64,000 bases of DNA from an uncultured Candidatus Saccharibacteria bacterium (GTDB taxonomy: Bacteria > Patescibacteriota > Minisyncoccia > Phycocordibacterales > UBA12088). A model generated the notes under the pieces. It made no database searches. It was not told where the DNA came from and worked only from the letters and a program-made list of their open reading frames with translations. The stretch lies in the NCBI GenBank assembly GCA_964531785.1, contig CAZHFF010000001.1:229997-293996 (forward strand), in the 5' to 3' direction. The position numbers were made by a program, and so were the translations under genes. Below are positions 13,690-21,888 of this stretch, piece after piece; within the stretch, counting starts at the first letter, position 1, and each line of letters opens with the position of its first letter.

Positions 13690-13718
13690 TTGACAGTGAA
13701 CACTCGTTCACCTACACT
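13690..13718 (+). promoter_or_regulatory. Sigma-70-type promoter TTGACA-N17-TACACT with embedded LexA (Cheo-type) box
   Basis: -35 at 13690-13695 and -10 at 13713-13718. The spacer contains the palindrome GTGAAC-ACTC-GTTCAC (13696-13711), which fits GAAC-N4-GTTC. Confidence 0.65.
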
Positions 13719-13746
13719 GAGGACATACCAGATAACAGCCGGGCGT

Positions 13747-14022
13747 ATGAGCAAGAACACCCTAACCAAAGAGATCATCCGTGAGCTTGAAAAGCTCAAT
13801 GACACGATCGATCGCAAGATCATCAAGGGGCTTTCCTACAAAACGGAGGCAAAACGCCATCGCGAGCTCACCGAAACCCTGCACCGGATCCGTGCGGAAA
13901 GCGAAGACGAACTGCTCGCGCACGCGGCGCACCGGTCAGGTCGTCGGGGCAAGAGTCCGGTGCGGAGAGAGCTTGCCGGGGGTGTCGTACGCAGGTTGTT
14001 CGGCTTCAGTCTCGCAGTATAG
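13747..14022 (+). CDS. Hypothetical small protein, first gene behind the SOS promoter
   Basis: ATG at 13747 lies downstream of the predicted TSS. Coiled-coil-like N-terminus, basic and hydrophobic C-terminus. Confidence 0.5.
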   Translation: MSKNTLTKEIIRELEKLNDTIDRKIIKGLSYKTEAKRHRELTETLHRIRAESEDELLAHAAHRSGRRGKSPVRRELAGGVVRRLFGFSLAV

Positions 14023-14074
14023 TGAGCTGCTCAGGCCGGCTTCCGATTTCCGCGCACTAAAAACATTCTTCAGC

Positions 14075-14527
14075 ATGTCGCACGAAACAAAGTTCAAGAT
14101 CATCGCGTCCGTCTATCTCGTGCTCGAGCGAGATGAGAAGAAGCTATTGATCCGTCGGTTCAGGACCGGTTTTGAAGACGGTAAGTATGCATTGGCCGCA
14201 GGGCATGTTGATGGTAATGAGACCATGCGCGAAGCACTGGTGAGGGAGGTCCGCGAGGAGATAGGTATTGAGCTTACTGTCGATGAGCTGGAGCTTGTCC
14301 ACACCATGCACCGCTTTTGCGGTGATCATGAGCGCGTAGATCTGTTCTTTAAAACGCGGGACTGGGAAGGGGAGCCTTGCAATATGGAACCGGAAAAATG
14401 TGATGACGTGCACTGGTTTCCTAACGACGCTCTGCCTGAGAATCTGGTGCAGTATGTCCGCGTTGCGCTCGGTCACATAGATGCGGGTGTGCAATACAGT
14501 GAGTTCGGATGGAGTTTGAATAGGTGA
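14075..14527 (+). CDS. NUDIX hydrolase (MutT-like)
   Basis: Nudix box GHVDGNETMREALVREVREEIGIE. Confidence 0.85.
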   Translation: MSHETKFKIIASVYLVLERDEKKLLIRRFRTGFEDGKYALAAGHVDGNETMREALVREVREEIGIELTVDELELVHTMHRFCGDHERVDLFFKTRDWEGEPCNMEPEKCDDVHWFPNDALPENLVQYVRVALGHIDAGVQYSEFGWSLNR

Positions 14528-14530
14528 CAT

Positions 14531-15100
14531 ATGGAACACTACAAAAAACAGCTCTACACCTTCTATCACACGCATCGTCGCATGCCCGGCTACAGCGAGA
14601 TGTGCGAGCTCTTCGGGTTCGCTTCGAAGAACGCGGTCGCCAAGGTGGTCGACAAGTTGGTCGATGCCGGGGTGATACACAAAGATGCAAAGGGAAAGCT
14701 GCTCCCGCTTTCGCTCGGCGACGAGGTGCCGCTTTTGGGGTATGTTGAGGCTGGCTTTCCGTCCCCTGCCGAGGAGATGGCGCTCGACAGGATCACGATG
14801 ACCGACCTCTTGCTCGACACCAAAGACCCGGTTTACCTCTTGCGCGTGAAGGGCGACTCCATGATCGACGCGGGTATCTTTGAGGGTGACCTCCTACTGG
14901 TGGAGCGTACCGAGCACGTTCGGGTCGGGGACATCGTGGTCGCGAACATGGACGGTGAGTGGACCGTGAAATACCTCCGGGAAAAGCGTGGCCGTCGCTA
15001 CCTAGAGCCTGCAAATGAGGACTATCCCGACCTATATCCTGAACACTCTTTAGAGATAGGGGGTGTGGTAAGGAATGTCATACGGACGTACAGAAAATAA
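14531..15100 (+). CDS. lexA: LexA repressor
   Basis: Winged-helix N-terminus, cleavage site VEAGFPSP, S24 catalytic GDSM and VKYL. Confidence 0.9.
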   Translation: MEHYKKQLYTFYHTHRRMPGYSEMCELFGFASKNAVAKVVDKLVDAGVIHKDAKGKLLPLSLGDEVPLLGYVEAGFPSPAEEMALDRITMTDLLLDTKDPVYLLRVKGDSMIDAGIFEGDLLLVERTEHVRVGDIVVANMDGEWTVKYLREKRGRRYLEPANEDYPDLYPEHSLEIGGVVRNVIRTYRK

Positions 15101-15548
15101 TTCAAAAGGCAAAAATCAAAATGCAAAATTACAGTTCAAATGTAAAAAGTGATCTACGCCAACGCTGCTATTCATTTAGTTTATCGATCATTAAGGTTGT
15201 TGACGGGTTGCCTAGCAAGAGAGCGGCGTGGGTGATAGCAGATCAGCTTATCAGGTCCTCCACATCTGTTGGGGCAAATTTAGTAGAAGGTAAATCAGCA
15301 AGTTCGCGACTCGAGTTCAAGAAGTTTTATGAGATCGCCCTTAAATCAGCAAATGAAACAAAATACTGGCTCTCTTTGTTAAAAGATGCAGGTTTATGTG
15401 ATCGTTCGCACGTTGAGCCGCTGATGAGCGAAATCGTAGAGATTAGTAACATGTTAGCAAGTGGAGTCATTAAACTTAAGCAGAAGGTGTGACTTTTTAC
15501 TTTTGCCTTGTATTTTTGACCTTTGCATTTTGAGTTTTGACTTCTAGC
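15101..15548 (+). mobile_element. AT-rich inverted-repeat-bounded unit carrying the four-helix-bundle gene
   Basis: Left arm 15101-15150 pairs with right arm 15492-15548: TCAAAATGCAAA with TTTGCATTTTGA, and GTAAAAAGT with ACTTTTTAC. The interior is visibly AT-richer than the flanks. Confidence 0.4.
15121..15492 (+). CDS. Four-helix-bundle protein (23S rRNA intervening-sequence protein / Avd-like family)
   Basis: Family hallmarks SFSLSIIKVVDGLP, SVGANLVEG and YEIALKSANETKYWLSLL. Confidence 0.9.
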   Translation: MQNYSSNVKSDLRQRCYSFSLSIIKVVDGLPSKRAAWVIADQLIRSSTSVGANLVEGKSASSRLEFKKFYEIALKSANETKYWLSLLKDAGLCDRSHVEPLMSEIVEISNMLASGVIKLKQKV

Positions 15549-15582
15549 ATAGGCTTAGACTTACTACTTTCTACTCTTTACT

Positions 15583-17037
15583 ATGCAAATAGACCCATCA
15601 ACCCCACTTGTCTTCATCGACCTGGAGACCACAGGCACGAGTCCTCGCCATCATCGAGTGATCGAGGTCGGTATCGTGCGTGTTGAAGAAGGGGAGGCGG
15701 TGAAGGAGTATAAAACACTTTTGAACCCAGGCGAGCTGGTGCCCGCGTTCGTTGCTTCGCTCACCGGCATCTCTACGGCGATGCTCCAGGGCGCACCACA
15801 GTTCGAGGACGTTGCCCTGGAGATCGCAGAGCTGCTCGAAGGAGCACTTTTTGTTGCGCATAATGCGCCATTCGATTACGGCTTTTTGGGAGCAGAGTTC
15901 CGTCGTATCGGCATGTCGTTCTCGTATCCGTACCTTTGCACAGCGAAACTCTCACGTGAACTGTATCCGGAGCACAGGCACCATAACCTTGATACGATCA
16001 TAGAACGCTATAGTCTCCAAGCGGGCGATAGGCACCGTGCTCTTGATGATGCAAAGGTGTTGCACCAGCTGTTGGGTGTCATGAGGAAGGAGCTCGGTGA
16101 TGAGCGAGTGTTCGAGGTGTGTCAGAACATGGTGCGTGTGCGCAACCTTCCGCTTCATATACAGGAGGAACAGGTAGCGCGCCTTCCGGAGCTTTGTGGT
16201 GTGTACTTTTTCTATGGAAAAAACGATGAGCTGTTGTACGTTGGCAAGAGCAGGAGAATACGCACCAGGGTTCGCTCCCATTTCTCTGCCGATGCGCTCT
16301 CCGGTAGGGGTCGTGACATGCTTTCCGAGATACGGCGCATCGAATACAAGGTAACGGCCGGTGAGCTCGGCGCGCTCTTGCTTGAGTCGCACCTCATCAA
16401 AACACAGTTGCCGGTATACAACGTGCGCGAACGGGAACGCAAGGCACTCTGTCTGGCGCGTGAACACACTGATGCCACAGGATATAGTCGTATCGCCATC
16501 GAGTACGCAGACACGATTGAACGCGGTGAGGAGGCAAGTATCGCAGCTGTTTTCAAAAGCAAGCGACAAGCAAAGGAAGTACTCGGACAGCTTGCAAAGG
16601 ACCATACCCTCTGCCCGACGCTTCTTGGTCTTGAGAAGCCTACTACTGAGAAGGCGCCATGTTTTAGCGCTCAGCTTGAGCAGTGTCAAGGTGCCTGTGC
16701 CGGAGTAGAGAAATCTCGCCATTATAACAAGCGTTTTCGATCAGCATTTTCACACCACCGTATAAAGGCATGGCCATTTGCGGGGCCAGTCGCTATCGAG
16801 GAAAAGAACCTCGACGGCTCGGGTGAGCTTTTTGTGGTCGATAACTGGCGTTTGCTCACCGCGCTCCATCTTGAGGACGGTGAATGGCAAGAGTTCGTTC
16901 CTGCGCGATTCCGGTTTGACTACGATGCCTACAAGATATTTTCGCGTGAGCTGTTACGCAGGAAACCTAAGGTACAGGTACGCGAGTTAACGTCTGTTGA
17001 ACAAGCTTGGTTAGAAGGAGCGAGCACTCCCCTATAA
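15583..17037 (+). CDS. DnaQ-type 3'-5' exonuclease fused to a GIY-YIG/UvrC-N-like nuclease (Cho / Rv2191-like)
   Basis: DEDDh motifs FIDLETTG, AHNAPFDYGFL and HRALDDA. GIY-YIG motifs GVYFFY..LLYVGKS..R.RV.SHF. Confidence 0.85.
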   Translation: MQIDPSTPLVFIDLETTGTSPRHHRVIEVGIVRVEEGEAVKEYKTLLNPGELVPAFVASLTGISTAMLQGAPQFEDVALEIAELLEGALFVAHNAPFDYGFLGAEFRRIGMSFSYPYLCTAKLSRELYPEHRHHNLDTIIERYSLQAGDRHRALDDAKVLHQLLGVMRKELGDERVFEVCQNMVRVRNLPLHIQEEQVARLPELCGVYFFYGKNDELLYVGKSRRIRTRVRSHFSADALSGRGRDMLSEIRRIEYKVTAGELGALLLESHLIKTQLPVYNVRERERKALCLAREHTDATGYSRIAIEYADTIERGEEASIAAVFKSKRQAKEVLGQLAKDHTLCPTLLGLEKPTTEKAPCFSAQLEQCQGACAGVEKSRHYNKRFRSAFSHHRIKAWPFAGPVAIEEKNLDGSGELFVVDNWRLLTALHLEDGEWQEFVPARFRFDYDAYKIFSRELLRRKPKVQVRELTSVEQAWLEGASTPL

Positions 17038-17044
17038 GTCACCT

Positions 17045-17157
17045 GTCAAATGTTTAAAGTCAAATGTACAAGTAAAAGATCAAAAAATTATCTGTTAGTG
17101 ATAGACATTTTGTTTGAAATATACTTTTGACCTCTGACCTTTAATCTTTGAAGTTCT
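17045..17157. repeat. Cargo-less member of the AT-rich inverted-repeat family
   Basis: Left arm GTCAAATGTTTAAAGTCAAATGTACAAGTAAAAGATCAAAAAA. Right arm CATTTTGTTTGAAATATACTTTTGACCTCTGACCTTTAATCTTTGAAGTTC. It abuts the ATG at 17158. Confidence 0.55.
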
Positions 17158-17553
17158 ATGAAGCCCGTCTCATTCATTCGCACCGCGCCAACTGCACTGG
17201 GGGAGGTCAAGAGTGACGCAGGGTACAGGAACCCGCTTTCACTTGACGCGCTGTTGGTGAGTCATCCAACCTCGACGTTCTTTGTTCGTGTCGGGAATGA
17301 TGTGGACGAAGCAGGTGAAGGTTTAGGTGTCGTTGCAGGAGATTTGCTCATTGTGGACCGATCTGTTTTGCCAACACTTGGCAGGCTGGTGCTTGCAGTG
17401 GTTGAGGGGCAACTTGTGCTGCGTCGTTACACAGAACATGAATCTCGTCGGTTTCTTGTTTCTGGAACACCAAAGCCACAGTCTATCGAGCTTACAGACG
17501 AACATAACGTAGTGCTTTGGGGTGTGGTGACTGCAACGGTTCGGCACGTCTGA
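17158..17553 (+). CDS. UmuD-like S24-fold protein lacking the Ser/Lys catalytic dyad
   Basis: Collinear with UmuD and the LexA C-terminal domain (LLVSHPTSTFFVRV..GDLLIVD..VLAVVEG). GDSMIDAG is replaced by GNDVDEAG, and the TVK(K/Y)L lysine by VLRRY. Confidence 0.75.
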   Translation: MKPVSFIRTAPTALGEVKSDAGYRNPLSLDALLVSHPTSTFFVRVGNDVDEAGEGLGVVAGDLLIVDRSVLPTLGRLVLAVVEGQLVLRRYTEHESRRFLVSGTPKPQSIELTDEHNVVLWGVVTATVRHV

Positions 17554-17612
17554 TTTTGCAAATTAGTAGCCTGATCTATGCTAGTTGTGAGTATGTGCTA
17601 TCGTACAATACC

Positions 17613-18080
17613 ATGAAATGGAAGACGCCACCGACCATAAAGATATATGAAGCGCTTGGTGCGATCAGTGACGGGCGTGTCGAGGTTGAGGGGAACGTTG
17701 CCAAGGTCTATTCATCAAGTCGAGGTAAGTACTACGACGTAACCTATGACCCGGTTGCAGGCGCTATCATGGCGAATGACAACGGGTCGTACTGGAAAGG
17801 GTACCTAGGCTACCCGTCGATTGCGTTGCTTATGCTCAAGCAAGTCCTACCTTACGACCTCAGTGTCGCGATGTTGCTCAAAGATATTCCCTGGAAAGAT
17901 ATTAACCAGAAGCATAAGAACAATTTTGATAAAACGTTGTCGTATGTGCTTGGGGCGGTTCTGCACAGGGGAGGGAATGTGCAAGATCTTGAGCGATACG
18001 TGGAGGATATCAAACAACGGGTACAGGCACTGGAGCTCTCACATTTAGGGCCGAGAGCACAGCCGCCGGAGGGATATTGA
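17613..18080 (+). CDS. Hypothetical protein between umuD-like and umuC
   Basis: 155-aa ORF starting MKWKTPPTIKIYE, with a TGCTATCGT box just upstream. No motif recognised. Confidence 0.5.
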   Translation: MKWKTPPTIKIYEALGAISDGRVEVEGNVAKVYSSSRGKYYDVTYDPVAGAIMANDNGSYWKGYLGYPSIALLMLKQVLPYDLSVAMLLKDIPWKDINQKHKNNFDKTLSYVLGAVLHRGGNVQDLERYVEDIKQRVQALELSHLGPRAQPPEGY

Positions 18081-18351
18081 CGCATGGGCGGCTTATAGTA
18101 CGTGGGTACGCATGATGTCAAGAACTGCATCATGAGTACAATGTGTCATCTCATGCTGGTTCTTCGAAACGAAAGAAGCAGGATGCACCGTGCCTCGGTT
18201 GTGAGTAGCACGCAAAGGGCAGATTGGTCTGTTTGCCAGCCTGCCCCTCATGACTCGAGCACCCACGTCATAGGACTTATGGTCGAACCGAATGTGGCGC
18301 TTGAGGCAAAGACCATTGCGGCTGTAGGTCTGCCCAAAATTCTTGCCCCCC

Positions 18352-19878
18352 ATGCTGTCACCCATCACGCTCATCGACTGCAACAACTTTTTTGTAAGCT
18401 GCGAGCGGCTTTTTCGCCCTGATTTGGTAGGACGGCCAGTCGTTGTGCTCTCCAGTAATGACGGGTGTGTGATATCGCGGAGTGAAGAGGCAAAAGCACT
18501 TGGTGTTAAAATGGGTGAACCGTACTTCAAGGTGAAGGACGCGTGCATGAAGCATGGGGTCACGGTCTTTTCCTCGAACTTTGACCTCTACCGCGACCTT
18601 TCGCGTCGTGTCATGCATACGCTACGCAGTTTCTCTGACGATGTTGAGGTGTACTCTGTGGACGAAGCCTTTCTAACCAGAACATCTCTGAAGGCCCCAT
18701 CTGCTTTGTCGCCTTCGTCGTGCGGACTCTCACCGTACTCACAGTACGACTCGAGTCCCCACTCCTCGGCGCCTTGCATCTGGGGTCTTGATAGATGTTC
18801 TGGCGGTGGGTGTACAAAGCACGAGATGTGTGAACTATATGCTTGGGGTCAGCTTATCCGCAGCACTGTGTTTCGTGAAGTAGGTATACCGGTCTCGGTC
18901 GGCATTGCTCCCACAAAGACGCTTGCAAAGGCTGCCACGTACTTTGCCAAACACGCCTCGCGGGCGTATGGGAATGGGGAACGACGAAGTATGGGGGGCG
19001 AGTATGAGAATGAGGCAACGGTTCCGCATACGAACTCCGCATACGAAACTCAGAGCCACGCTCCGTATACGAACACGCTCTGCACACAAGGCGTATGCGT
19101 ATTCATGGACGAGGCGGCACGCACACAAGCCCTCAACATCTTGCCCATTGAAGAGGTTTGGGGAGTGGGGTTCCGCCTTGCCCCAAAGCTTGTTGCGTTA
19201 GGTGTCGATACAGCAGGGAAGCTCGCGGCAATGAACGATGCGTGGATCCATAAAAAGATGAGCATACGGGGCTTGCGCACCGTAGAAGAGCTTCGAGGCA
19301 AGCGGTGCTACAAGATCGGCGAAGATACGGAGCTTAGGAAGTCGCTCCTCCATTCGCAGTCGTTCGGTAGGCCTGTCAAAGACCTACCGGCTCTACGTGC
19401 CGCGGTCGCATACCATGCACGCAAGGTTGCTGAGACCCTGCGTGCCGAGCGTGCCGCAGCTCGGAGCGTTCACGTGACCGTGCGTACCTCGCGCCATGGG
19501 CAAGTGCGGTACGCTGCTGGTGATATGGATATTTTACCTGCACACACGAACAGTACGTTCGAGCTTGTATCCCAAGCGCTTGCCGTGCTCACGCGCATCT
19601 ACCGTCAAGGTTTCCCGTATGCAAAGGCTGGTGTCATGGTGACCGATATCGTTCCGGAGGGCGCGGTACATCCGGTGACATTGTTCGGTGCTGTTCCGGG
19701 TGACGTGCAGCCCCTGATGAAGGCATGGGACGAACTGCGTCACCGCTATGGACCCAACGTGGTGCGTTTGGGTGTCGAAGGCAAGCAGACCGCCTGGGCG
19801 GCTCGCCACGGGCTGCTTTCGCCTCGATACACCACGGACTGGAAGGAGATAGTGATGGTGCAGAAAGTTAAAAGTTAA
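18352..19878 (+). CDS. umuC: Y-family DNA polymerase, UmuC type
   Basis: Collinear with E. coli UmuC: IDCNNFFVSCERLFRPDL..VVVLSSNDGCVISRS.EAKALGVKMG, SVDEAF, and C-terminal LSPRYTT. Two low-complexity insertions. Confidence 0.9.
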   Translation: MLSPITLIDCNNFFVSCERLFRPDLVGRPVVVLSSNDGCVISRSEEAKALGVKMGEPYFKVKDACMKHGVTVFSSNFDLYRDLSRRVMHTLRSFSDDVEVYSVDEAFLTRTSLKAPSALSPSSCGLSPYSQYDSSPHSSAPCIWGLDRCSGGGCTKHEMCELYAWGQLIRSTVFREVGIPVSVGIAPTKTLAKAATYFAKHASRAYGNGERRSMGGEYENEATVPHTNSAYETQSHAPYTNTLCTQGVCVFMDEAARTQALNILPIEEVWGVGFRLAPKLVALGVDTAGKLAAMNDAWIHKKMSIRGLRTVEELRGKRCYKIGEDTELRKSLLHSQSFGRPVKDLPALRAAVAYHARKVAETLRAERAAARSVHVTVRTSRHGQVRYAAGDMDILPAHTNSTFELVSQALAVLTRIYRQGFPYAKAGVMVTDIVPEGAVHPVTLFGAVPGDVQPLMKAWDELRHRYGPNVVRLGVEGKQTAWAARHGLLSPRYTTDWKEIVMVQKVKS

Positions 19879-20020
19879 AAGGCAAAGGTCAAAAGTGTCC
19901 TACGTTCTAGAACCAGCGAATGCAGGGTTGAATTTACCGAAGTAATCGTTGACATATAGAATAGGATATGTTTAGTAGCATCAGAATTTGCGCATCTAGG
20001 GACTTGGGAAGGGTAATTGA

Positions 20021-20335
20021 ATGAATGCACAAGTCGGTATCAGGATGTTTTTCGGCCTCATGTTTGTCGTCGTGCTCGCAGGTTGCGAGGAGTTGACAAG
20101 TACAGAGGATAACAGGGACGCGTGTTCCATTGTTAATTATGGCCAGGGGGTCTTATATTTCTCCTGCACCCGAGACATGTTCGCCAGAACACTGGCGAAG
20201 TGGAGAGAGGAAAATCCCTGTGCCATCAGCGCTGTCACCGGCAACGGAACAGGTGGCGCCGGTTATGACCAGGGATACTTTATATTCCTTGAGTCAACAA
20301 CATGTTCCTTGGGCTCGGAACTTGGGAAAAGGTAG
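20021..20335 (+). CDS. Small lipoprotein, hypothetical
   Basis: Signal peptide with lipobox VLAG|C, six Cys residues, AT-richer codons than neighbouring genes. Confidence 0.6.
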   Translation: MNAQVGIRMFFGLMFVVVLAGCEELTSTEDNRDACSIVNYGQGVLYFSCTRDMFARTLAKWREENPCAISAVTGNGTGGAGYDQGYFIFLESTTCSLGSELGKR

Positions 20336-20356
20336 GCGACCGCTACTATCGATAAG

Positions 20357-20382
20357 GCGACGCGCTCACCCGCGTCGTTTTT
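20357..20382 (+). terminator. Rho-independent terminator
   Basis: CGACGCG-N6-CGCGTCG followed by TTTTTT. Confidence 0.7.
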
Positions 20383-20508
20383 TCTTTTTAAAAAACGGAT
20401 CCTTCCCATTCTTACCTGCACTTTTGCATTTTGCATTTTGACTTTTGAACTTTGAATTTTTCATGTATTTCCATCTTCCTTTCTGTATCCCCACATACCC
20501 TCGATATT

Positions 20509-20524: not shown

Positions 20525-21364
20525 ATGATTCGTGCGAGCGTGGTGTTGCTGTTGGCGGGCTTTTTTATGTGGGCCCCGTGGATGGATACCACCAGCGGGC
20601 GTACCTCGGTTGATCGGGCGCTTGAAGCGTTCGGGCCGGTTCCCTCCAATTGTTTCGACAGTGACGGGAATGAACTGCAGAACGGACTTGCGACCCGTTG
20701 GTACCCGCTCGGGCGACTAATACATGCGTGCAATGGCGATTATGTGGTCTGGTTTTGGGGAGCGGTCAAGGAAATGGGAGGTGTCTACAAGAAGGCAGAC
20801 GATATCCATGCAAAGCAGGCAAAGCCCCTCAGCTGTCAGAACGTGATCGACCGCCAAGAGGCGCGTCGTGCAACGAGCACTGACGCGACCGTGGTCGTCT
20901 TCGAGGGCCCGTTCGCGACCGAGCCCGATTTCTCGCTCCATCCTGAGGCGCGGGAACACCGCTCAAAGCTCGTCGCGGCGTTGCGCACCGGACCTAACTT
21001 CGCAGGTGCGTTCACCGTCGTTTCATGGGAATGCGGTCAGAATTGCCAAGACCATGCGGTCATGAACTCAGCCACTGGTCAGGTCATAGCCTATGGTCCT
21101 AAAACCGAGTTCTCGCTCGATTACAGCCTCAATAGTACACTCCTCATCACTAACCCGGTCAAGAACCTGCCGGCTCTGAGCGACAGTAACTACGAAGCAG
21201 AGACCATGGCACTCTCGATCGCGCGCTTGCCACGCGAGTACTACCGCCTCACCTCGGACGCGCTGTCGGGGACACAGTACCTGGTCAAGCTTTGCGTTGA
21301 GAGTGCTGCGATCGGGTACATCGCTGTTGCGGACGATCGTATCGGATTAGTGGAGCGGCAGTAG
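20525..21364 (+). CDS. Hypothetical secreted/membrane-anchored protein
   Basis: N-terminal hydrophobic helix. No recognised motif. Confidence 0.6.
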   Translation: MIRASVVLLLAGFFMWAPWMDTTSGRTSVDRALEAFGPVPSNCFDSDGNELQNGLATRWYPLGRLIHACNGDYVVWFWGAVKEMGGVYKKADDIHAKQAKPLSCQNVIDRQEARRATSTDATVVVFEGPFATEPDFSLHPEAREHRSKLVAALRTGPNFAGAFTVVSWECGQNCQDHAVMNSATGQVIAYGPKTEFSLDYSLNSTLLITNPVKNLPALSDSNYEAETMALSIARLPREYYRLTSDALSGTQYLVKLCVESAAIGYIAVADDRIGLVERQ

Positions 21365-21399
21365 CTCGAAATGACCGTTTTGCATCAAGGGACACCTCT

Positions 21400-21408
21400 T
21401 GCTAGCAT
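21400..21408 (+). promoter_or_regulatory. Extended -10 TGCTAGCAT, 6 nt before ATG 21415 (leaderless)
   Basis: TGnTAGCAT, then gtcggt, then ATG. Confidence 0.5.
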
Positions 21409-21414
21409 GTCGGT

Positions 21415-21888
21415 ATGCTCGCTGTAGGTGATCAGGTGCCGCGTGAACTGCGCATGACCGACGAGAACGGTACAGTAGGTACGCTAGGCGACTTGGCCGG
21501 CTCATACCTGGTCGTGTACTTCTATCCGAAGGATCTGACCCCGGGCTGCACTGTCGAAGCAGAGCAGTTTCGAGATGCGCTCCCGCAGCTCGAGGCACTG
21601 AACGCCAAGGTGTTAGGGGTCAGCAAGGATAGCTGCCAGAGCCACATGAAGTTCAAGGAAAAGAAGGGTCTCACGTTCACGCTTGTTGCGGACACGGAGC
21701 ATGAGCTCATGGAGGCGTTCGGCGTTTGGGGAGAACGGAAGTTCATGGGCCGGACGTATATGGGCACCTCACGCTCGACGTTCCTCATTAGCCCGGAAGG
21801 AGTAGTGCTCCATGTGTGGGAAAAGGTGAATCCGCTAGGGCACGCGGAAGACGTGCTGACCGTGCTACGTGCGCAGCGAACCGTGTAG
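21415..21888 (+). CDS. bcp: Thioredoxin-dependent peroxiredoxin (Bcp type)
   Basis: YFYPKDLTPGCTVEA peroxidatic-Cys motif and AhpC/TSA fold length. Confidence 0.9.
   Translation: MLAVGDQVPRELRMTDENGTVGTLGDLAGSYLVVYFYPKDLTPGCTVEAEQFRDALPQLEALNAKVLGVSKDSCQSHMKFKEKKGLTFTLVADTEHELMEAFGVWGERKFMGRTYMGTSRSTFLISPEGVVLHVWEKVNPLGHAEDVLTVLRAQRTV

What the first reader, a model, noticed from the sequence alone, without database searches (positions are those of the whole stretch)
15101..15548. Four-helix-bundle (23S-IVS-type) gene inside an inverted-repeat-bounded AT-rich unit between lexA and the Cho-like gene
The gene belongs to the family first found inside 23S rRNA intervening sequences and also known as Avd in diversity-generating retroelements. 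Here it is bracketed by imperfect inverted repeats. TCAAAATGCAAA (15116-15127) pairs with TTTGCATTTTGA (15522-15533). GTAAAAAGT (15142-15150) pairs with ACTTTTTAC (15492-15500). The unit starts immediately after the lexA stop and is visibly AT-richer than its flanks. This looks like an IVS-type stem-loop cassette placed in an mRNA operon rather than in rRNA. No reverse transcriptase or template/variable repeat pair is present, so it is not a DGR.
Basis: partly seen in the sequence, partly recalled or inferred. Interest (0 to 1): 0.7.

Follow-up and report, generated by a model that had tools for sequence, protein, structure and literature searches.

The report
Heptad-armed four-helix-bundle insertion cassette
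[quoted passage not shown] Its two ends are inverted arrays of 7-base repeats, a design shared by many relatives in ultra-small bacteria and, with other 7-base units, in several other phyla.

Summary
ORF 15121-15492 is a TIGR02436/PF05635 four-helix-bundle (4HB) gene. It is bracketed by 52-nt imperfect inverted arms, 15099-15150 and 15492-15543, in an AT-rich unit that starts at the lexA stop codon.

Almost every one of 77 related genes from Patescibacteria carries the same arms.

- **Selection on the arms.** Non-coding arm positions are conserved at 1.25-1.33 bits. Third codon positions score 0.51 and flanking DNA 0.1.
- **Insertion.** Relatives have lexA and cho only 3-89 nt apart.
- **Orientation.** Cassettes always point the same way as the host genes (49 to 0 between co-directional neighbours).
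- **Derivatives.** ORF-less hairpin versions exist.
- **Other subfamilies.** They carry other heptads, in Cyanobacteria, Chloroflexota and Treponema. The Coxiella 23S IVS has GACAGAT heptads upstream of its ORF.
- **Not a DGR.** There is no reverse transcriptase and no template/variable repeat pair.

The "IVS-type cassette outside rRNA" reading therefore holds as architecture. RNA pairing, RNase III cutting and the mode of mobility remain inferred. The conserved heptad sequence points to a sequence-specific binder, most simply the basic 4HB protein itself.

The parts
15097..15545 (+). Whole cassette: left heptad arm, 4HB ORF and right heptad arm. Promoterless and AT-rich.
   Evidence: The conservation profile over 55 homologous elements rises at about 15096-15100 and falls at about 15545. 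No sigma-70-like promoter or terminator-like site lies inside. GC is 0.31-0.50 against 0.55-0.63 in the flanks.
15099..15150 (+). Left arm: about 7 A-rich heptads (TTCAAAA GGCAAAA ATCAAAA TGCAAAA TTACAGT TCAAATG TAAAAAG). It holds the 20 nt before the ATG and the first 10 codons (MQNYSSNVKS).
   Evidence: Searches find the arm and its heptads. Lag-7 self-match is 0.62. The non-coding part scores 1.33 bits per position and the coding part 1.59. The Pfam match starts only at residue 11.
15121..15492 (+). Four-helix-bundle protein gene: 123 aa, pI 9.45, TIGR02436 / PF05635.
   Evidence: Selection is purifying: against the syntenic copy in the closest relative pN is 0.16 with synonymous sites saturated (pS 0.89). 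The two copies in that relative give dN/dS 0.08.
15492..15543 (+). Right arm: T-rich heptads complementary to the left arm (ACTTTTT ACTTTTG CCTTGTA TTTTTGA CCTTTGC ATTTTGA GTTTTGA CTT). It starts at the last base of the stop codon.
   Evidence: One search finds the arm. Lag-7 self-match is 0.64. Conservation is 1.25 bits per position.
14531..15100 (+). Host gene upstream: LexA-like S24 peptidase. Its stop codon TAA abuts the first heptad.
   Evidence: One search gives the family. The C-terminus (VIRTYRK*) is intact compared with relatives that lack the cassette.
15583..17037 (+). Host gene downstream: Cho-like exonuclease + GIY-YIG protein. The 39 nt before it (15544-15582) are probably what remains of the native lexA-cho spacer.
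   Evidence: Searches give the family. Empty-site spacers in relatives are 3-89 nt.
19864..19897 (+). A-rich heptad array of a second arm-bounded unit. It overlaps the last codons and the stop of the Y-family polymerase gene.
20419..20460 (+). T-rich heptad array, the partner of 19864-19897.
   Evidence: 28-nt arms are 82% complementary. The duplex energy is -33.5 kcal/mol against -18.4 +/- 3.8 for shuffles, 0 of 1000 as good. These arms cross-pair with the arms of the first unit.
20021..20335 (+). Cargo of the second unit: a 104-aa orphan ORF with a lipoprotein-type signal (…VVLAGC). A terminator-like hairpin follows at 20354-20381.
   Evidence: The only database match is the protein itself. 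It has no NCBIfam match.

Best explanation
The unit 15097-15545 is one copy of a widespread, promoterless insertion cassette of Patescibacteria (CPR).

**Anatomy.** It carries a basic four-helix-bundle (S23p/IVS-protein/Avd family) gene. Both ends of the gene are built from about 7 tandem heptads: GTCAAAA-type on the left, overlapping the start codon and the first 10 codons, and the complement TTTTGAC-type on the right, starting at the stop codon.

**Origin.** It was inserted directly behind the lexA stop codon of an SOS operon, and it can only be transcribed by read-through from that operon.

**Proposed mechanism.** In the transcript the arms can pair into an interrupted A-U helix of about 50 bp. 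That helix closes the ORF into a loop, hides its start codon and brings the host sequences on either side together. This is the architecture of ORF-bearing 23S rRNA intervening sequences, which RNase III cuts in the stem. The heptad sequence itself is conserved and differs between 4HB subfamilies, so the arms are probably also recognition sites for a sequence-specific factor. The simplest candidate is the encoded 4HB oligomer.

**Shown here.** Family membership, arm anatomy and periodicity, selection on the arms, the insertion status, the orientation rule, the ORF-less derivatives, and the association of other 4HB subfamilies with their own heptad arrays.

**Inferred.** Pairing in vivo, RNase III cleavage, protein-heptad binding, and how new copies arise.
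For: **Family.**

**Arms shared across the family.** The same arms flank nearly all of 77 distinct homologous genes from 79 CPR loci.

**Selection on the arms.** Boundaries are sharp. Non-coding arm conservation is 1.25-1.33 bits, against 0.51 at codon position 3 and about 0.1 in the flanks. Synonymous sites are saturated between the window and its nearest relative.

**Pairing.** Arms pair better than shuffles: -27.8 against -18.2 kcal/mol, median z -2.7. The window's arms are matched by 2 of 1000 shuffles. In register, 75.7% of cells are paired, against 57-60% one column off. Compensatory changes occur, for example UA to CG at pair 38:103 in 6 sequences. Complementarity in the inner box is higher for self than for non-self pairs, z 3.5.

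**Insertion.** lexA-cho gaps are 3, 37 and 89 nt in relatives, with intact LexA C-termini. The closest relative has a younger second copy 1.2 kb upstream, dS 0.61 between its two copies.

**Orientation.** Both neighbours are co-directional with the cassette in 49 cases and both are opposite in 0. All 8 plasmid examples are also co-oriented. No promoter-like site lies inside the unit.

**ORF-less hairpins.** They carry the same arms and lie near 4HB genes.

**IVS parallel.** The Coxiella IVS has GACAGAT heptamers before the S23p ATG, a 28-bp terminal stem and RNase III cleavage.

**Subfamily-specific heptads.** GTGAAAG, TCAGACA, GTTAACG and ATACGAA. GTAATTC, CCCCAAT/CGTAAAT, GATGAAG and CTCTCCG.

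**Arrays cluster around 4HB genes.** In the four plasmid stretches scanned without a preset motif (160 kb), 19 of 20 period-7 arrays lie within 5 kb of the 4HB gene.

**Basic protein.** pI is 9.45.
Against: - There is no sense-strand advantage: antisense arms fold slightly better, -29.4 against -27.8 kcal/mol, and sense is better in only 30 of 77.
- Duplex energy is no better for self than for non-self arm pairs: -27.8 against -26.3, median rank 37 of 77.
- Covariation is modest: 12-18 of 500 shuffles reach the observed values.
- One or two positions per heptad are mismatched in most elements. The helix is therefore a series of short A-U blocks and may be a poor RNase III substrate.
- The whole-unit fold is not exceptional, z -1.0.
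- In the Bernardetia and Treponema examples the flanking arrays are direct rather than inverted. Two gut-contig 4HB genes have no arrays.
- No copy of this subfamily was found inside an rRNA gene.
- No transcript or biochemical data could be consulted.
Confidence: 0.55

Rival explanations
1. The arms are DNA-level terminal inverted repeats of a small transposon with MITE-like derivatives. Either an unidentified transposase moves it in trans, or the 4HB protein acts on DNA. The RNA stem is incidental.
For: - The insertion is polymorphic between relatives.
- The relative L002 carries a younger intragenomic duplicate.
- ORF-less derivatives of about 110-190 bp keep both arms.
- The complementarity signal is stronger with Watson-Crick pairs only than with G-U allowed, and there is no sense-strand bias.
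- The termini are conserved: AA at -22/-21 in 55 of 58 elements.
- Arms of the two units in the window are interchangeable.
Against: - No target-site duplication could be defined.
- No transposase gene appears next to any of the contexts with precomputed annotation.
- The strict co-orientation with host transcription, 49 to 0, is not expected from a plain DNA transposon unless expression of the ORF is essential to it.
- The ends are repeat arrays of variable length rather than defined inverted repeats.
- None was found on viral contigs.
Confidence: 0.25
2. The heptad arrays are operator sites for post-transcriptional control. The 4HB protein, or a host RNA-binding protein, binds the arrays that lie just before start codons. 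It thereby sets translation of its own gene and of the downstream host gene (here cho). On this view the cassette is a domesticated regulator rather than a selfish insertion.
For: - The left array overlaps the 4HB start codon.
- Right arrays end 0-10 nt before the downstream start codon in many loci: the distance from the 4HB stop to the next ATG has a mode of 45-61 nt.
- No Shine-Dalgarno-like sequence precedes cho or the 4HB gene.
- The published proposal for TAACTGA heptamer arrays upstream of start codons is that they bind a translational regulator (PMC4679880).
- In a Dolichospermum plasmid nine arrays of the 4HB-specific heptad lie in the same operon.
Against: - The cassette is absent from the same operon in relatives, so it is not a conserved part of SOS control.
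- In the window the right arm ends 39 nt before cho.
- There is no binding evidence of any kind.
Confidence: 0.15
3. The unit is a degenerate DGR remnant: an Avd gene that lost its reverse transcriptase and template repeat.
For: PF05635 includes Avd-like proteins of DGRs.
Against: - No reverse transcriptase gene lies within -6/+3 kb.
- No direct repeat of 40 nt or more lies in window 5000-27000.
- The same RT-less arrangement is seen in every related locus whose annotated context was inspected and in all 8 plasmid examples.
Confidence: 0.02
4. The complementarity is a chance product of AT-rich simple sequence, or of replication slippage, with no function.
For: - A-rich and T-rich segments pair fairly well even when shuffled (-18 to -21 kcal/mol).
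- The number of heptads varies between elements.
Against: - The arms are conserved at 1.25-1.33 bits while synonymous sites are saturated.
- Only four such arrays exist in 64 kb, against 0 in shuffles, and they form two inverted pairs.
Confidence: 0.02

Closest known systems
ORF-bearing 23S rRNA intervening sequences (Coxiella burnetii, Leptospira)
   Same: - A 4HB/S23p ORF of about 120 aa sits in the loop of a stem formed by terminal inverted repeats.
- Tandem heptamers lie immediately upstream of the start codon (GACAGAT in Coxiella).
- There is no own promoter, so transcription depends on the host unit.
- ORF-less short forms exist.
- The total size is similar: 428-444 nt in Coxiella, about 447 nt here.
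   Different: - The host site is the junction between two protein-coding genes, not helix 25/45 of 23S rRNA.
- The heptad is different, and there are many more heptads, on both arms.
- The stem is long but interrupted every heptad, rather than a near-perfect 28-bp stem.
- RNase III cleavage is unproven here.
- The Coxiella ORF is decaying, whereas this one is under strong purifying selection.
Avd (accessory variability determinant) of diversity-generating retroelements
   Same: The same protein superfamily: a basic four-helix bundle. That it forms pentamers and binds nucleic acid is established knowledge of bAvd and was not tested here.
   Different: There is no reverse transcriptase and no TR/VR pair. 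The gene is flanked by heptad arrays, which is not a described DGR feature.
Bacterial MITEs / palindromic intergenic elements (e.g. Correia, REP/BIME)
   Same: - Short AT-rich inverted-repeat elements inserted between genes.
- They are co-transcribed with their neighbours and able to form RNA hairpins.
- Both ORF-less and ORF-bearing forms exist.
   Different: - The ends are tandem heptad arrays rather than unique inverted repeats.
- No partner transposase is known.
- No target duplication has been defined.
- Orientation relative to host transcription is strict.
Heptanucleotide tandem repeats: cyanobacterial STRR, TAACTGA arrays of Beggiatoaceae (PMC4679880), GGGAATC arrays of Xanthomonas (PMC4692102)
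   Same: - Arrays of 7-nt units in intergenic regions.
- They often lie just upstream of start codons or occur as convergent (inverted) pairs.
- Their function is unknown.
   Different: Those reports do not connect the arrays with PF05635 genes. Here the arrays are the ends of a 4HB cassette and cluster around 4HB genes.
Integron gene cassettes
   Same: Promoterless ORFs in the host's transcriptional orientation, bounded by imperfect inverted-repeat sites. Neighbouring small ORFs are separated by repeated arm copies (L002, L066).
   Different: No integrase or attI was seen. The repeat lies on both sides of the ORF. The heptad structure is unlike attC.

Membership tests
PF05635 / TIGR02436 four helix bundle (23S rRNA IVS protein, Avd-like) | Profile-HMM score above the curated cut-off | tested here: met
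   PF05635 scores 92.2 bits against a cut-off of 33.8. TIGR02436 scores 100.2 bits against a cut-off of 24.
PF05635 / TIGR02436 four helix bundle (23S rRNA IVS protein, Avd-like) | Four-helix-bundle fold assembling into a pentamer | not tested
   Only sequence similarity to the solved structure 2RLD is available: E 3e-16 over residues 12-118. No structure prediction was run.
rRNA intervening sequence (IVS) | Inserted in a 23S (or 16S) rRNA gene helix | tested here: not met
   Rfam finds only four tRNAs in the window. The neighbours are lexA and cho. No universal rRNA motif occurs in any of the 79 related loci.
rRNA intervening sequence (IVS) | Terminal inverted repeats that form a stem enclosing the element | tested here: met
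   52-nt arms are 75% complementary. The stem is present in the MFE and centroid folds. It beats shuffles, 2 of 1000.
rRNA intervening sequence (IVS) | Excision from the transcript by RNase III without re-ligation | not testable with these tools
rRNA intervening sequence (IVS) | S23p/4HB ORF in the loop, preceded by tandem heptamers (Coxiella type) | tested here: met
   for the window. for Coxiella.
Diversity-generating retroelement | Reverse transcriptase gene adjacent | tested here: not met
   The precomputed Pfam annotation of the contig from -6 kb to +3 kb shows no RT.
Diversity-generating retroelement | Template repeat / variable repeat pair | tested here: not met
   No direct repeat of 40 nt or more lies in window 5000-27000.
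MITE / small DNA transposon | Terminal inverted repeats and multiple dispersed copies, including ORF-less ones | tested here: met
   The relative L002 has two copies.
MITE / small DNA transposon | Target-site duplication | tested here: inconclusive
   Empty sites come only from relatives whose Cho proteins are 66-72% identical to the window's. The termini are AT-rich with T/A next to the first AA. A search for an empty allele in metagenomes found nothing.
MITE / small DNA transposon | Cognate transposase | not tested
   None was seen in the annotated contexts inspected. No systematic search was made.

The most novel reading that the evidence does not exclude
PF05635 four-helix-bundle proteins and tandem heptanucleotide arrays form one system found across bacteria.

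- Each 4HB subfamily carries, and probably binds as an oligomer, its own 7-nt repeat.
- The gene-plus-arrays unit behaves as an IVS-like insertion cassette that can sit in rRNA helices or in operon junctions and leaves ORF-less hairpins behind.
- This would tie together three old puzzles: what IVS-encoded S23p proteins do, how IVSs spread, and where some of the heptanucleotide repeat arrays long known in cyanobacteria and other bacteria come from.
Probability: 0.3. Interest if true: 0.85.

Novelty: new variant of a known kind. Interest (0 to 1): 0.68.

Why it matters
The S23p/IVS-protein family has been known since the early 1990s, and its members outside DGRs still have no assigned function. 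How intervening sequences arise and move is also unresolved. Heptanucleotide tandem repeats have likewise been catalogued for decades without a mechanism.

This cassette shows the IVS design at work outside rRNA, in an SOS operon of an ultra-small bacterium. The comparison set gives three results:

- The arms are selected.
- The arms are built from heptads.
- The heptad is specific to the protein subfamily.

Together these make a concrete, cheap experiment possible: does the 4HB oligomer bind its own heptad array, as RNA or as DNA, and does RNase III cut the paired arms? It also matters for annotation. Such cassettes split operons in compact CPR genomes, and they supply the last codons and stop codon of at least one host gene (the Y-family polymerase gene at the second unit).

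Tried and rejected
- **Whole-unit fold z-score.** It is -1.0 and uninformative, because the 340-nt ORF dominates.
- **Duplex energy, self against non-self arms.** No difference was seen. The arms are generic across the family, so this test has no power. A mismatch-count test on the variable inner box did give a signal.
- **Sense against antisense folding.** There is no asymmetry, so this cannot be used to argue for an RNA-only function.
- **Paralogues in the window.** None was found.
- **Link to stable-RNA genes.** No rRNA motif occurs in the 79 loci. Only one cassette, in L027, abuts a tRNA gene.
- **Homologues of the 104-aa cargo of the second unit.** The protein matches only itself.
- **Exact-match search for an empty allele of the Daviesbacteria EamA-L31 site in metagenomes.** Nothing was found, so the target-site duplication stays unresolved.
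- **Viral contigs.** No copies were found, so phage carriage is unsupported.
- **Gut 'phage' contigs with 4HB genes.** They carry no heptad arrays, so the association is common but not universal.
- **Literature searches.** No paper was found that links PF05635 genes with heptad arrays, apart from the Coxiella IVS description. The library is limited to open-access papers and bioRxiv.
- **DGR reading.** Rejected.

Full report
**Observation**

The two short pairs belong to one inverted repeat, 15099-15150 / 15492-15543, 52 nt long and 75% complementary.

The enclosed ORF 15121-15492 (123 aa, pI 9.45) is a clear member of the four-helix-bundle family:
- PF05635, 92 bits against a cut-off of 33.8.
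- TIGR02436, 100 bits against a cut-off of 24.
- The solved structure 2RLD, E 3e-16.

The neighbours are a LexA-like S24 peptidase (14531-15100) and a Cho-like exonuclease + GIY-YIG protein (15583-17037). A UmuD-like gene, a UCP014422 gene and a Y-family polymerase gene follow. GC drops to 0.31-0.35 in the arms, against 0.55-0.63 outside.

The arm duplex energy is -33.7 kcal/mol, against -20.8 +/- 4.0 for shuffles; 2 of 1000 shuffles were as good. The long-range stem appears in both the MFE and the centroid fold. The whole-unit z-score is only -1.0.

The left arm reads TTCAAAA GGCAAAA ATCAAAA TGCAAAA… and the right arm is its complement. The lag-7 self-match is 0.62-0.64, against about 0.2 at lags 3, 4 and 10.

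A scan for such arrays finds only four in the 64-kb window, against none in shuffles. Two flank the 4HB gene. The other two, 19864-19897 and 20419-20460, form a second inverted pair.

**The cassette family**

The window comes from a Patescibacteria (CPR) genome. The protein has more than 1,800 database relatives, and the named ones are almost all from CPR lineages. A scan of species-representative genomes gave 278 relatives, of which 79 loci were kept.

Nearly every one has the same flanks:
- Left: …(T)AA GTCAAAA GGCAAAA GTCAAA ATG CAAAATTACAATTCAAAATTTAAAAGT…
- Right: …AACTTTTGA CTTTTTACTTGAACTTTTGACTTTTGAATTTTGAATT.

The arms therefore encode the first about 10 residues (MQNYNSKFKS, outside the Pfam domain) and the last two or three.

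A conservation profile over 55 elements gives the following information content per position:

| Region | Bits per position |
|---|---|
| Non-coding left arm | 1.33 |
| Right arm | 1.25 |
| Codon position 1 | 1.18 |
| Codon position 2 | 1.49 |
| Codon position 3 | 0.51 |
| Flanks | about 0.1 |

The boundaries are sharp, at 15097 and 15545. Between the window and its closest relative synonymous sites are saturated (pS 0.89) while pN is 0.16. The two copies in that relative give dN/dS 0.08. Both the protein and the arms are under purifying selection.

**It is an insertion**

The closest relative (L002; Cho protein 74% identical, P0124) has the cassette at the same place. Three further relatives (Cho protein 66-72% identical) have lexA and cho separated by only 89, 37 and 3 nt, with intact LexA C-termini.

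L002 also has a second copy 1.2 kb upstream. That copy is closer to its own first copy (dS 0.61) than to the window's copy, so it is a younger intragenomic duplicate.

**Rules of placement**

- **Orientation.** Where both neighbours could be oriented, they are co-directional with the cassette in 49 cases, one of them is opposite in 17, and both are opposite in none.
- **Upstream stop.** It lies 20-28 nt before the 4HB ATG in most elements. TAA abuts or overlaps the first conserved AA in 39 of 58.
- **Downstream start.** It often follows the right arm within a few bases.
- **Own signals.** No promoter-like or terminator-like site lies inside the window's unit.
- **Stable RNA.** No rRNA motifs occur in any locus. 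Only one cassette abuts a tRNA gene.
- **Phage.** None was found on viral contigs.

**Derivatives**

ORF-less hairpins lie near 4HB genes in L013, L016, L025, L030 and L066. Each consists of a left array, a short loop that is sometimes a GC-rich hairpin, and a right array. The L016 copy still holds the ATGCAAAATTACAA start.

In L066 the 4HB gene lies between two complete hairpins. In L002 a 59-aa zinc-ribbon-like ORF lies between two right-type arrays. In the window, the second pair of arrays encloses a promoter-like site, an orphan lipoprotein-like ORF and a terminator.

**Do the arms pair as RNA?**

Evidence for pairing:
- Family-wide, the arms pair better than shuffles: -27.8 against -18.2 kcal/mol.
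- On a 30-sequence alignment, 75.7% of cells are paired in register, against 57-60% one column off.
- Compensatory changes occur: UA to CG at pair 38:103 in 6 sequences, and CG/UA at pair 52:88.
- The variable inner box is more complementary to its own partner than to others, z 3.5.

Evidence that the signal is modest:
- 12-18 of 500 shuffles reach the observed covariation.
- Duplex energy for self pairs is no better than for non-self pairs.
- One or two positions per heptad are usually mismatched.
- The antisense strand folds at least as well as the sense strand.

Complementarity is real. What is most strongly conserved, however, is the heptad sequence itself. That points to recognition by a sequence-specific factor.

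**Other subfamilies and the IVS link**

Other 4HB genes in the same CPR loci carry different flanking arrays: GTGAAAG, TCAGACA, GTTAACG and ATACGAA.

Eight plasmid-borne 4HB genes were examined. Five are from Cyanobacteria; the others are from Chloroflexota, Bacteroidota and Treponema. All eight are co-oriented with their neighbours. Seven show period-7 arrays at one or both flanks, including GTAATTC, CCCCAAT/CGTAAAT, GATGAAG, TCTTCCN and CTCTCCG. In the Bernardetia example the flanking repeats are direct and of longer, uncertain period. Most arrays are inverted; those of Treponema and Bernardetia are direct.

An unbiased period-7 scan of 30-50 kb around four of these genes found 20 arrays, 19 of them within 5 kb of the 4HB gene. 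Two gut-contig 4HB genes have no arrays, so the association is frequent but not universal.

The Coxiella 23S IVS has tandem GACAGAT heptamers before the S23p start codon, a 28-bp terminal stem and RNase III cleavage in that stem (PMC4990558). PF05635 ORFs are also reported inside CPR rRNA insertions (PMC11270868).

Published surveys of heptamer arrays in Xanthomonas/Nostoc and in Beggiatoaceae do not mention this gene family. I found no paper making the connection, within the limits of the searchable library.

**Interpretation**

The unit is an IVS-type cassette living in an operon junction. It is promoterless, oriented with host transcription, and closed by arms that can pair, hide its own start codon and bring the host flanks together.

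RNase III processing, binding of the heptads by the basic 4HB protein, and the way copies spread are inferences. A DNA-level transposon/MITE reading remains a serious rival. A purely regulatory reading is possible.

**Verdict**

This is a new variant of a known kind: the IVS design outside rRNA, with heptad-array arms. It also offers a broader, testable hypothesis linking the PF05635 family to heptanucleotide repeat arrays.

Noticed in passing
window 19864-20460: A second unit is bounded by the same kind of inverted heptad arrays. It starts in the last codons of the Y-family polymerase gene (…QKVKS* is encoded by the array). It encloses a promoter-like site (19933-19962), an orphan 104-aa lipoprotein-like ORF (20021-20335) and a strong terminator-like hairpin (20354-20381). 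Its arms cross-pair with those of the 4HB cassette.
   Followed up: partly
window 13690-19878; L002, L089, L090, L091: A conserved SOS-type cluster: small 88-92-aa ORF, lexA, cho-like exonuclease + GIY-YIG, and a UmuD-like S24 protein in the window, L002 and L089 (L090 and L091 have an unannotated 109-112-aa ORF at that position). A UCP014422 gene is called in the window and L089 only; a Y-family polymerase gene follows in the window, L002, L090 and L091 (none is called in the L089 stretch).

The junction between the small ORF and lexA differs in every lineage:
- a NUDIX gene in the window;
- a 4HB cassette plus a 59-aa zinc-ribbon-like ORF in L002;
- Bro-N plus a 100-aa ORF in L089;
- nothing in L090 and L091.
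   Followed up: partly
window 20525-21888 compared with L090 102-959 and L091 1619-2947: The 279-aa gene and the AhpC/TSA-like gene lie after the second array unit in the window, but upstream of the SOS cluster in relatives. The second unit therefore sits at a synteny break.
   Followed up: no
window 18343-19878: The Y-family polymerase ORF is 511 aa, against 420 and 428 aa in L090 and L091. The excess seems to be low-complexity Ser/Pro- and Thr/Asn-rich stretches in the middle of the protein.
   Followed up: no
L013 1437-1550; L016 666-765; L025 1641-1743; L030 5449-5552; L066 1354-1547: ORF-less hairpin elements with the same heptad arms, 1-3 kb from 4HB genes. In L016 the remnant keeps the 4HB start (ATGCAAAATTACAA), followed by a small GC-rich hairpin in place of the ORF.
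   Followed up: partly
L102 (Dolichospermum plasmid pAfl69) 27305-33658: Nine arrays of the 4HB-specific heptad (TTACGAA/GTAATTC) cluster within 6.3 kb around the 4HB gene. Several lie inside annotated coding sequences (helicase-related, hypothetical, DNA methyltransferase). There they would be translated as repeats if in frame.
   Followed up: no
L092/L102, L095/L104, L097/L103: In three unrelated plasmids (Dolichospermum, Chlorohelix, Planktothrix) the 4HB gene follows a helicase-related gene; the next gene is annotated as a DNA methylase in Chlorohelix, is followed by a DNA methyltransferase in Dolichospermum, and is an unnamed large protein in Planktothrix. This suggests a recurrent insertion site in a restriction/defence-type operon.
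   Followed up: no
L027 3369-3516: The right arm of a cassette runs directly into a co-oriented tRNA-Ser gene. This is the only stable-RNA neighbour among the 79 loci.
   Followed up: no
L054 3660-3861; L069 990-1057: Very long right-type heptad arrays (up to about 136 nt) lie downstream of or near 4HB genes. This shows large variation in heptad copy number.
   Followed up: no
record titles of L011, L013, L017 and others: Many of the MAGs that carry this CPR-type cassette are titled 'uncultured Gammaproteobacteria' or 'Saccharibacteria' in the TPA assemblies. These titles look like placeholder or wrong taxonomic labels.
   Followed up: no
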